This document shows positions 10,117-10,236 of a stretch of DNA of 62,231 nucleotides, one piece after another. The notes beneath the pieces are model-generated. The model searched no databases, was not told the DNA's origin, and worked only from the letters and a program-made list of their open reading frames with translations. How positions within the stretch are numbered: the first letter of the stretch is position 1; each line of letters opens with the position of its first letter. Made by a program: the position numbers and the translations under genes. This stretch comes from a virus, in the IMG/VR virus record IMGVR_UViG_3300010348_000458, positions 1-62,231 of that record, one strand, 5' to 3'.

Positions 10117-10236
10117 GGAACAGGTGTTCTAGGAACAGGTGTTCTAGGAACAGGTGTTCTAGGAACAGGTGTTCTAGGAACAGGTGTTCTAGGAACAGGT
10201 GTTCCAGGAACAGGTGTTCCAGGAACAGGTGTTCTA
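10117..10236. repeat. 15-bp tandem repeat x8 (ggaacaggtgttc[t/c]a), each unit a GAAC-N4-GTTC inverted repeat
   Basis: Eight contiguous units counted directly. Units 6 and 7 carry the c variant. Confidence 0.95.

What the first reader, a model, noticed from the sequence alone, without database searches (positions are those of the whole stretch)
10117..10236. Eight tandem GAAC-N4-GTTC palindromes, plus ten more copies dispersed over 4.4 kb
The 15-bp unit GGAACAGGTGTTC(T/C)A is repeated 8 times head to tail. Each unit contains GAAC-AGGT-GTTC.

The same GAAC-N4-GTTC core recurs at 11131, 11487, 12041, 12067, 12093, 12656, 12682, 13204, 13238 and 14457. Most of these sit just downstream of strong promoters or next to terminators.

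GAAC-N4-GTTC is the core of the Gram-positive (Cheo-box type) LexA operator. The sites could therefore:
- couple these loci to the host SOS response, or titrate LexA; or
- be sites for a phage regulator; or
- in the case of the array, be iterons or a partition-type centromere.

The array has no spacers, so it is not a CRISPR array.
Basis: partly seen in the sequence, partly recalled or inferred. Interest (0 to 1): 0.65.

Follow-up and report, generated by a model that had tools for sequence, protein, structure and literature searches.

The report
Variable operator-box array in sludge phage
An uncultured sludge phage marks the boundaries of its small early genes with a strictly conserved 16-bp palindrome that looks like a Gram-positive LexA site, and in one lineage a copy has expanded into a fast-changing 6-8-unit tandem array; what binds it is still unknown.

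Summary
Eight head-to-tail 15-bp units lie at 10117-10236, and ten more GAAC-N4-GTTC cores lie at 11131-14457 (19 in the window against about 1 expected).

The window is a probably virulent, uncultured phage from sludge and digesters. Bases 9.5-16.5 kb form a hypervariable region of ORFan gene cassettes.

The dispersed sites share a 16-bp palindrome, T(A/C)GAAC-RNNY-GTTCTA. They sit between each cassette's terminator and the next promoter module. Across diverged relatives the half-sites never change (0/256), while the spacer (13/128) and outer flanks (155/1972) drift. That is the signature of a site for a dimeric DNA-binding protein.

The array is a derived, weaker box that has expanded:
- It has 8, 7, 7 and 6 units in four assemblies.
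- It is the only indel in 21 kb between two near-identical genomes.
- It is absent from diverged relatives.

It is therefore an accessory copy-number variant, not an origin or centromere. A better origin candidate lies at 27.3 kb, and there are no partition genes.

LexA is a reasonable ligand but is untested. The host is unknown, the phage encodes no LexA homologue, the sites do not overlap the gene promoters, and every core is perfect, unlike graded LexA regulons.

Interest is moderate.

The parts
10117..10236 (.). Tandem array of eight 15-bp units. On the gene (-) strand the units read TAGAACACCTGTTCC, with two TGGAAC variants. Copy number varies: 8, 7, 7 and 6 units in independent assemblies.
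10336..10361 (-). Intrinsic terminator hairpin of the 107-aa gene (10421-10744). The array begins 99 nt downstream of it in the direction of gene transcription.
   Evidence: sequence
11131..11142 (.). Dispersed box ATAGAACAAACGTTCTAT, 16 nt from the bidirectional terminator hairpin and T-run at 11088-11115.
11487..11498 (.). Dispersed box, 22 nt from terminator 11520-11539. Conserved in L006, L023 and L027.
12041..12104 (.). Cluster of three boxes (12041, 12067, 12093) forming a 26-bp tandem repeat. It lies between terminator 12125-12145 and promoter module A.
12656..12693 (.). Cluster of two boxes (12656, 12682) spaced 26 bp apart, between the T-tract array 12718-12763 and promoter module B.
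13204..13249 (.). Cluster of two boxes (13204, 13238), between the T-tract array 13274-13347 and promoter module C.
14457..14468 (.). Dispersed box, 28 nt from terminator 14496-14525. Conserved in L006, L023, L024 and L027.
11909..12029 (-). Promoter module A. It holds the sense promoter TTGTAT-17-TATACT, the GTGA-N6-TCAC operator and an antisense promoter-like TTGACA-17-GATAAT (11986-12014, + strand) that faces the boxes.
12521..12641 (-). Promoter module B, 82% identical to A. Its antisense promoter-like site is at 12598-12626.
13070..13190 (-). Promoter module C, 98% identical to A. Its antisense promoter-like site is at 13147-13175.
12718..12763 (.). Phased A/T-tract array (period 11-14 bp) immediately upstream of a box cluster in gene orientation. 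The same arrangement recurs in relatives.
13274..13347 (.). Phased A/T-tract array (period 12, GCGAAAAACTTT) upstream of a box cluster.

Best explanation
What the boxes are. The GAAC-N4-GTTC boxes are operators, that is, double-stranded DNA sites for a dimeric sequence-specific DNA-binding protein. The full site is the 16-bp palindrome T(A/C)GAAC-RNNY-GTTCTA. One to three copies stand at each boundary of the early ORFan gene cassettes, between the upstream gene's terminator and the next promoter module. They are often preceded by a phased A/T-tract (curved DNA) array.

What the array is. The 15-bp array is one such box in a slightly degenerate form (TAGAACACCTGTTCCT). It has been amplified by replication slippage into 6-8 overlapping sites directly behind the terminator of the last cassette.

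Inferred function. Protein bound at these sites insulates or roadblocks transcription between cassettes, acts on the adjacent divergent promoters, or both. The array is a high-capacity version, a roadblock or sink for the protein, whose size drifts rapidly. The same conserved boundary sequences also serve as homology for gain and loss of cassettes.

Ligand. Its identity is not shown. Host LexA is the best single named candidate (about 0.3 absolute). An unrecognised phage-encoded or other host regulator is about equally likely.

Shown versus inferred.
- Shown: the motif, its placement, its conservation pattern, the copy-number variation, and recombination joints at the boxes.
- Inferred: protein binding, the ligand, and the effect on transcription.
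For: Statistics: 19 cores against 1.05 expected. There is no excess of cores with one mismatch. Density is about 200-fold above unrelated DNA.

Motif: 28 distinct instances from the window and relatives give T(24/28) A/C GAAC R N N Y GTTC T(28/28) A(25/28).

Footprint against diverged relatives:
- half-sites, 0/256 substitutions;
- flanks at +-2, 1/124;
- spacer, 13/128;
- outer flanks, 155/1972.

Paralogous boxes carry at least nine different spacers but never a covarying stem, so the sequence is being read rather than only a fold.

Placement: boxes occur only in the cassette region and never in the 11-kb replication-gene contigs of relatives. They are placed consistently 16-28 nt from terminators, or 27-90 nt downstream of the + strand promoter-like sites. 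Box clusters keep a 26-bp spacing and are preceded by A/T-tract arrays in the window and in L027.

Array:
- 8, 7, 7 and 6 units in four assemblies.
- It is the only indel in 21.2 kb between the window and L011.
- Its unit is closest to the TAGAACACCCGTTCTA boxes of L023 and L027.
- In L006 a single box occupies the equivalent position after the same terminator.

Recombination: a box-to-box joint at 12104/12650, and L006 breakpoints at boxes 14457 and 13238.

Precedent: in phage GIL01, LexA boxes lie downstream of a promoter's transcription start (PMC4551915).
Against: - No binding protein has been identified. Pfam, PHROGs, NCBIfam and PDB sequence searches name no repressor in the phage.
- The boxes lie about 100-180 bp upstream of the sense promoters rather than over them. 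A different palindrome (GTGA-N6-TCAC) occupies the promoters.
- Three module copies work without any boxes.
- The array is dispensable, because relatives and co-occurring variants lack it.
- Array units deviate from the dispersed consensus at the otherwise invariant +1 T.
- At only about 8% divergence, the absence of half-site changes would also be expected for a conserved RNA stem.
- The comparisons are not independent, because paralogues and shared ancestry are involved.
Confidence: 0.6

Rival explanations
1. This is a specific version of the best explanation and is the first reader's reading. The ligand is the host's LexA. The boxes tie the cassette region, or its antisense promoters, to the SOS state. 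As the phage replicates, about 18 sites per genome soak up LexA.
For: - The core is identical to the Firmicutes and Actinobacteria LexA motif GAAC-N4-GTTC (PMC3323433, PMC4234289, PMC4551915).
- The site is a 16-bp palindrome, as in Streptomyces (tCGAAC-N4-GNNCGa; PMC9380542).
- The spacer edges are R and Y in all instances.
- The terminase is nearest to actinophage terminases. There are weak pointers to an Anaerolineae host. My own knowledge is that Chloroflexi use the Gram-positive box (Dehalococcoides), but I could not retrieve that paper.
- No phage repressor was recognised.
- In GIL01, LexA boxes lie downstream of the P1 start site (PMC4551915).
Against: - The host is unknown and binning is contradictory.
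- Position -1 is A, not the C of the CGAAC consensus.
- All 28 distinct boxes have perfect cores, whereas real LexA regulons are degenerate and graded (PMC9380542, PMC4234289).
- No box overlaps a sense promoter.
- The phage has no lysogeny module, so the usual logic of SOS induction does not apply.
- Eight bases of core identity carry little information.
Confidence: 0.3
2. This is also a version of the best explanation. The ligand is a phage-encoded regulator, or a non-LexA host regulator, that happens to read GAAC half-sites. This is comparable to the dispersed operators bound by a phage's own repressor in other phages.
For: - The uniformly perfect sites, confined to one phage region, resemble phage-specific operator sets such as the stoperators of Cluster A mycobacteriophages (PMC9283540, PMC6550527).
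- The phage has many small ORFan proteins. A 228-aa protein (18837-19523) has an HTH-like segment and a 97-aa protein (1462-1755) looks like a ribbon-helix-helix. Both judgements come from reading the sequence and are my own.
- A variant lineage carries a 65-69-aa HTH-like ORF where the array would be.
Against: - No family search supports any candidate.
- A second operator family (GTGA-N6-TCAC) already needs a regulator, and nothing links any protein to either motif.
Confidence: 0.3
3. No trans-acting ligand exists. The boxes are part of repeated boundary sequences that persist because they mediate cassette shuffling by homologous recombination (PeSL-like), or because they spread with the cassettes. 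The array is a neutral minisatellite.
For: - The region is hyperplastic. Cassettes are gained, lost and swapped between conserved promoter and terminator modules.
- Joints fall at boxes or modules: 12104/12650; L006 at 14453/13250; L116 joins module C to module A.
- Many unrelated tandem arrays share these intergenic regions.
- The array is dispensable and varies in copy number.
- PeSL precedent: PMC2839356, PMC4122927.
Against: - Homology-driven recombination needs no palindrome and no base-specific conservation. Yet the half-sites and TA flanks are invariant, while the 4-bp centre and the surroundings drift.
- Paralogous boxes with very different flanks keep the same 12 bases.
Confidence: 0.2
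4. The palindromes act as RNA hairpins. They could lie in short antisense transcripts from the + strand promoter-like sites, or in read-through 3' ends. The array transcript would fold into one long hairpin and act as a processing, stability or pausing element.
For: - The + strand sites are near-consensus (11/12, 11/12 and 10/12) and point into the boxes, followed in some cases by hairpins.
- Predicted folds are much more stable than shuffles (z -4.7 to -6.0).
- A few low-depth metatranscriptome contigs cover box regions.
Against: - The fold stability is a trivial consequence of tandem palindromes.
- Among at least nine paralogous variants there are no compensatory changes, only an invariant sequence.
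- There is no Rfam match.
- The RNA data are unstranded, very shallow and may be DNA carry-over.
- The TTGACA may be an operator half-site (TGACA recurs three times in the module) rather than a -35 element.
Confidence: 0.08
5. The array is a set of replication iterons or a partition centromere.
For: - Head-to-tail palindromic units resemble lambda-type iterons and ParR-type or omega-type centromeres (my own knowledge).
- The phage has an O-like/DnaD-like initiator.
Against: - The array is absent from close relatives and from co-occurring variants.
- Copy number is unstable.
- No ParA, ParB, ParM or ParR was found.
- A better origin candidate, TCGCGA-palindrome repeats, lies inside the initiator gene at 27304-27418.
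- There is no AT-rich unwinding region next to the array.
Confidence: 0.03
6. The array encodes a repeated pentapeptide. The candidate is the - strand ORF 10325-10074, with (P/R)TPVP repeats.
For: - An 83-codon ORF spans the array.
- A 15-bp period keeps the reading frame.
- A relative has a true coding 15-bp repeat elsewhere, a pentapeptide-repeat gene at L023 9477-9780.
Against: - The start codon sits directly behind a terminator, without a promoter and without the strong AGGAG-type ribosome-binding site of the real genes.
- The ATG is CTG in L006.
- The product would be low-complexity.
- The unit belongs to the non-coding box family.
Confidence: 0.02

Closest known systems
Gram-positive (Cheo-type) LexA/DinR SOS box, including phage-borne boxes such as GIL01 dinBox1
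   Same: - The core is the palindromic GAAC-N4-GTTC.
- The overall site is a 16-bp palindrome.
- R and Y lie at the spacer edges.
- In GIL01 the boxes also lie downstream of a phage promoter's transcription start.
   Different: - Position -1 is A, not C.
- There are 10 dispersed sites plus 6-8 tandem sites, instead of one or two at a key promoter.
- All cores are perfect.
- The sites sit at cassette boundaries, not over the promoters that drive the genes.
- The phage has no recognisable lysogeny module.
- LexA binding and the host are untested.
Stoperators of Cluster A mycobacteriophages (L5, Bxb1)
   Same: - Many near-identical short sites are dispersed in intergenic regions at gene boundaries of one phage.
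- A bound protein is thought to stop transcription elongation.
   Different: - Stoperators are asymmetric 13-14-bp sites, oriented with transcription and bound by a monomeric phage repressor of a temperate phage (PMC9283540).
- Here the sites are palindromic, confined to one 4.4-kb region, and no repressor is known.
PeSL (promoter-early stem-loop) mobile regulatory cassettes in hyperplastic regions of T4-type phages
   Same: - Small non-essential ORFan genes are each flanked by conserved composite promoter and terminator sequences.
- Differences between relatives arise by recombination between these sequences.
   Different: - This is an unrelated phage of about 62 kb with a terminase like those of actinophages.
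- The modules carry two extra palindromic operator families and curved-DNA arrays.
- Mini-circles were not tested.
Iteron or centromere arrays (lambda ori, R1 parC, pSM19035 omega sites)
   Same: Short protein-binding units are repeated head to tail.
   Different: - The array is not conserved in relatives.
- It is not next to an initiator or partition gene.
- Its copy number is unstable.

Membership tests
LexA (Cheo-type) SOS box | Palindromic core GAAC-N4-GTTC | tested here: met
   All 18 sites at 10117-14468 and 28 distinct instances in relatives have the exact core.
LexA (Cheo-type) SOS box | Extended consensus (t)CGAAC-RNRY-GTTCG(a) | tested here: inconclusive
   The outer T/A and the R/Y spacer edges fit. 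Position -1 is A in 20/28 and C in 7/28 on one side, and the equivalent of A in 28/28 on the other. The consensus is taken from PMC4551915 and PMC9380542.
LexA (Cheo-type) SOS box | Bound by the host's LexA and released on RecA-stimulated cleavage | not testable with these tools
   This needs EMSA, footprinting or ChIP. The host is not identified.
LexA (Cheo-type) SOS box | Site overlaps or closely follows the promoter of the regulated gene | tested here: inconclusive
   Seven boxes lie 27-90 nt downstream of + strand promoter-like sites that are antisense to the genes. None overlaps a sense promoter.
Variable-number tandem repeat (minisatellite) | Head-to-tail units whose copy number differs among otherwise near-identical genomes | tested here: met
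   There are 8, 7, 7 and 6 units. It is the only indel in 21.2 kb between the window and L011.
Replication iterons | Conserved in relatives and associated with the initiator gene or an AT-rich unwinding element | tested here: not met
   The array is absent in L006-type and other variants. The initiator is 17 kb away and has its own internal repeats.
Partition centromere | Adjacent ParA/ParM-type NTPase and centromere-binding protein | tested here: not met
   No such domains were found in any ORF scanned.
CRISPR array | Repeats separated by unique spacers of similar length | tested here: not met
   The units abut without spacers.
Stoperator-type dispersed operators | Asymmetric site with fixed orientation to transcription, and a cognate phage repressor | tested here: not met
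   The sites are palindromic, and no repressor was found.
PeSL-like regulatory cassettes | Conserved promoter plus stem-loop units flank ORFans in a hyperplastic region and act as recombination points | tested here: met
   The modules and terminators are repeated. Breakpoints and joints fall at modules and boxes. Membership of the T4-type lineage is not met, so this is an analogy in mechanism only.
Structured RNA family | Match to a curated covariance model, or compensatory base changes | tested here: not met
   There are no Rfam hits at gathering score. The stems are invariant, with no covariation among paralogues.

The most novel reading that the evidence does not exclude
A virulent phage uses operator decoys. 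Each genome carries about 18 perfect sites for the host's LexA, or for another global repressor. As the phage replicates, these sites titrate the repressor and switch on the host SOS regulon without DNA damage, or blunt an SOS-linked defence. The tandem array acts as a dose knob that replication slippage retunes within populations.
Probability: 0.12. Interest if true: 0.8.

Novelty: new variant of a known kind. Interest (0 to 1): 0.45.

Why it matters
If a protein does occupy these sites, this phage offers a compact natural example of three things:
- operators used as boundary elements between early gene cassettes;
- an operator amplified into an array that changes faster than any other site in a third of the genome;
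- PeSL-like modular shuffling outside the T4 group.

If the ligand is host LexA, it would link a seemingly non-temperate phage of an uncultured sludge bacterium to the SOS network, possibly by titration. It would also give a sequence handle for assigning the host. If no ligand exists, the region is still a clear case of how conserved regulatory boundary sequences drive the turnover of ORFan genes.

Tried and rejected
Searches for relatives:
- Megablast of the region against 50,697 phage records found no match.
- IMG/VR scans for the array, the clamp and the promoter module found nothing.

Host assignment:
- The TnpB scan of species-representative genomes was uninformative. The 92% hits are tiny contigs binned into unrelated MAGs, so they are probably the phage itself.
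- Relatives of the canonical clamp lie in integrated elements on large contigs without organism names.
- Those loci contain no boxes.

LexA:
- I could not retrieve the primary paper on the Dehalococcoides LexA motif.

RNA:
- There were no Rfam or tRNA hits.
- 'RNA' runs are either mislabelled DNA libraries or very shallow, and they are kept as unstranded contigs.

Candidate regulators and cassette proteins: Pfam, PHROGs, NCBIfam and PDB sequence searches gave nothing usable.

Literature: I found no precedent for tandem LexA-box arrays in phages.

Rejected readings: CRISPR, origin iterons, centromere, coding repeat, restriction-site cluster, and pac/cos site (the terminase genes are about 13 kb or more away on the circular map).

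Full report
**Observation.** Bases 10117-10236 are eight head-to-tail copies of GGAACAGGTGTTC(T/C)A. TRF reports period 15, 8.3 copies and 98% matches. GAAC-N4-GTTC occurs 19 times in the window, against 1.05 expected (0 of 100 shuffles reach 19). Eight are in the array and ten are at exactly the listed positions. One unlisted site at 48197 lacks the shared flanks and fits the chance expectation. Cores with one mismatch (34) are evenly spread at background. Density in 10.1-14.5 kb is about 4.1 per kb, against 0.021 per kb in 430 kb of unrelated bacterial DNA.

**Genome context.**
- The window is a tailed phage, with a large terminase, capsid protein, DnaB-like helicase, primase, O-like/DnaD-like initiator, GH25 lysin and at least seven N6/N4 DNA methyltransferases.
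- No integrase, recombinase, partition protein, S24 peptidase or classical repressor was found.
- It has no close cultured relative. Megablast gives no hit, and the terminase is 44% identical to actinophage terminases.
- It is widespread in activated-sludge, biogas and digester metagenomes.
- The host is unknown. One related contig was binned in an Anaerolineaceae MAG. A clamp relative at 63% identity is labelled Anaerolineae, and it is the only one of the 120 listed clamp hits that carries an organism name. Other fragments are binned in unrelated phyla, and the nearest clamp relatives lie in integrated elements on unnamed contigs.

**Anatomy of the region.** Genes at 9.5-16.5 kb are on the - strand. 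They are small ORFans with strong ribosome-binding sites and no family matches. Each has its own promoter and terminator. A module of about 121 bp recurs three times (11909, 12521, 13070).

Alignment of 11 distinct module copies from the window and relatives shows two layers:
- An invariant core, made of the sense promoter TTGTAT-17-TATACT abutted by a GTGA-N6-TCAC palindrome.
- A frequent but optional upstream part, present in 8 of 11 copies. It holds a promoter-like TTGACA-17-GATAAT on the opposite strand (11/12, 11/12 and 10/12 matches), followed by one to three GAAC boxes.

Read in the direction of the genes, each boundary runs: terminator, then often a phased A/T-tract array of period 11-13, then boxes, then the antisense promoter-like site, then the GTGA operator and sense promoter, then the gene. 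Boxes lie 16-28 nt from terminators (11131, 11487, 12093, 14457), or 27-90 nt downstream of the + strand promoter-like sites (12041-12093, 12656-12682, 13204-13238). Box clusters are themselves 26-bp tandem repeats.

**The box motif and its conservation.** Twenty-eight distinct instances give T(A/C)GAAC-R-N-N-Y-GTTC-T-A. I aligned each window box, with 40-bp flanks, to the diverged relatives L006, L023, L024, L026 and L027, without requiring an intact box. Substitutions were:

| Position class | Substitutions |
|---|---|
| Half-sites | 0/256 |
| Flanks at +-2 | 1/124 |
| 4-bp centre (spacer) | 13/128 |
| Outer flanks | 155/1972 |

Paralogous boxes have at least nine different centres and very different surroundings, but the same twelve outer bases and no compensatory stem changes. 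Boxes are absent from the replication-gene contigs of relatives. This is what a site for a dimeric DNA-binding protein looks like. The comparisons are not independent, because of paralogy and shared ancestry. At about 8% divergence, a conserved RNA stem would also show few changes.

**The array.**
- On the gene strand its units read TAGAACACCTGTTCC(T). One half-site with its flank matches the dispersed consensus. The other deviates at +1 and +2 (CT instead of the otherwise invariant TA).
- The nearest dispersed relatives are the TAGAACACCCGTTCTA boxes of L023 and L027.
- It begins 99 nt behind the terminator of the 107-aa gene. In L006 a single ordinary box sits behind the same terminator.
- Independent assemblies have 8 units (window), 7 (ERZ27257462 and ERZ724020; at least 7 in a JGI contig that ends inside it) and 6 (ERZ764804). 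All the variation is in the run of identical units.
- Over 21.2 kb aligned between the window and L011, the single 15-bp unit is the only indel. All 12 substitutions cluster elsewhere, at 4940-5198.
- The array is absent from L006-type genomes, from a 10114-to-10813 junction variant present in three runs, and from contigs where the identical 107-aa gene is followed by a small HTH-like ORF.
- It is therefore real, lineage-restricted, dispensable and the fastest-changing site in a third of the genome. It is a slippage-driven expansion of a box.

**What it is not.**
- It is not a CRISPR array, because there are no spacers.
- It is not an origin or a centromere. It is not conserved, and there are no partition genes. 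TCGCGA-palindrome repeats at 27304-27418, inside the initiator gene, are a better origin candidate.
- It is probably not coding. The spanning ORF starts right behind a terminator without a good ribosome-binding site, and its ATG is CTG in L006.
- It has no Rfam family.
- Both strands would fold into a long hairpin (z -5.2 and -6.0), but that follows trivially from tandem palindromes.

**Ligand.** The core equals the LexA box of Firmicutes and Actinobacteria (PMC3323433, PMC4234289, PMC4551915). The 16-bp palindromic form matches tCGAAC-N4-GNNCGa of Streptomyces except for A instead of C at -1 (PMC9380542). Phage GIL01 shows that host LexA can act on boxes downstream of a phage promoter's start (PMC4551915). 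From my own knowledge, Chloroflexi (Dehalococcoides) also use this box, but I could not retrieve that paper.

Points against LexA:
- The host is unidentified.
- All cores are perfect, whereas real regulons are degenerate and graded (PMC9380542, PMC4234289).
- The sites avoid the sense promoters.
- The phage appears non-temperate.
- Eight identical bases are weak evidence.

I put host LexA at about 0.3 and an unrecognised phage or other host regulator at about 0.3.

**Mechanism proposed (inferred).** Protein dimers occupy the boundary boxes. There they block read-through from the upstream cassette, control the facing antisense promoter-like sites, or both. Curved A/T-tract DNA next to the boxes may help build a higher-order complex. 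The array offers up to eight overlapping sites with a 15-bp period, so neighbours lie on roughly opposite faces of the helix. It would act as a reinforced roadblock ahead of the methyltransferase operon, or as a sink for the protein.

Independently of any ligand, the conserved modules and boxes are where cassettes are exchanged:
- L006 breakpoints fall at boxes 14457 and 13238.
- A box-to-box joint at 12104/12650 appears in a metatranscriptome assembly.
- L116 joins module C to module A.

This works like PeSL-mediated shuffling in T4-type phages (PMC2839356, PMC4122927).

**Verdict.** The LexA, titration and phage-regulator readings remain open. The iteron and centromere readings are disfavoured. 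The thing is best filed as a new variant of known kinds: dispersed phage operators plus hyperplastic-region regulatory cassettes, with an unusual variable array of operator-like units. Interest is moderate. It would be high if repressor titration by a virulent phage were shown.

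Noticed in passing
window 84-1472 (+): The ORF has a TROVE domain plus a vWA domain, so it is a Ro60/Rsr-like protein. Next to it is a 97-aa ORF (1462-1755) that looks like a ribbon-helix-helix protein. No Y-RNA-like Rfam hit was found in the window.
   Followed up: partly
window 4062-5198 (+) and 14876-16099 (-): The phage has two sliding clamps. 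One is canonical, with three DnaN domains. Its relatives at 70-76% identity sit inside integrated elements (Rad52, SSB, ArdC, RadC, SNF2) on bacterial contigs of 0.2-0.9 Mb. The other is divergent and specific to the phage.
   Followed up: partly
window 59311-60561 (+): This is an IS605-type TnpB, with HTH_OrfB_IS605, OrfB_IS605 and Cas12f1-like TNB domains. Copies at 92% identity occur on tiny contigs binned into unrelated MAGs.
   Followed up: partly
window 2462-3169, 5274-9495, 50575-54269: At least seven N6/N4 DNA methyltransferase genes are present. In the 947-aa gene (5274-8117), the methyltransferase matches are confined to the two ends (residues 3-96 and 869-943). A large insert lies between them, with a weak match to an intein-bearing ribonucleotide reductase family.
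   Followed up: no
window 27304-27418: Repeats rich in TCGCGA palindromes (periods 12 and 23) lie inside the O-like/DnaD-like initiator gene (26807-27769). This is a likely lambdoid-style replication origin.
   Followed up: partly
window 10813-10850, 11948-11977, 12560-12589, 13109-13138, 16190-16215, 16499-16528: A second operator-like family, GTGA-N6-TCAC (for example AGTGACATTTGTCAC), abuts the -35 of every cassette promoter. It is invariant across 11 module copies and resembles CRP/FNR half-sites.
   Followed up: partly
window 9906-10010, 11163-11369, 12718-12763, 13274-13347, 16301-16344, 16384-16491: Several other intergenic tandem arrays are present: 30 bp x3.5, 13 bp x16, and phased A/T-tract arrays of 11-12 bp. 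Copy numbers differ in relatives. The 13-bp array has 16 copies here and about 3 in L006. The 11-bp array has 10 copies here and about 15 in L027. CCATGG flanks several arrays.
   Followed up: partly
window 14422 versus L013 1989-2073: Relative to L013 and L023, the window lacks 83 bp. The missing stretch holds the -35 element and GTGA-type operator of the promoter of the 133-aa gene (13976-14377).
   Followed up: no
window 4940-5198: All 12 substitutions between the window and the otherwise identical L011 (21.2 kb) fall in these 260 bp, at the 3' end of the canonical clamp gene. This suggests a recombination patch.
   Followed up: no
L111 503-712, L115 450-647: In some contigs the identical 107-aa gene is followed by a 65-69-aa ORF with an HTH-like segment (AASELSISDRRVRALL), where the array would otherwise be.
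   Followed up: no
L023 9477-9780; L022 upstream of 799: A coding 15-bp repeat of 20 copies (TGCCAACCTGAGCGG) is present. It is a pentapeptide-repeat (A[D/N]LXX-like) gene cassette in relatives and is unrelated to the GAAC array.
   Followed up: no
window 20001-22000 and 37689-37945: There is a local GC peak (0.56) around the 396-codon + strand ORF 21032-22222, which has no family match. A 129-bp tandem duplication lies inside the 1010-aa structural gene.
   Followed up: no
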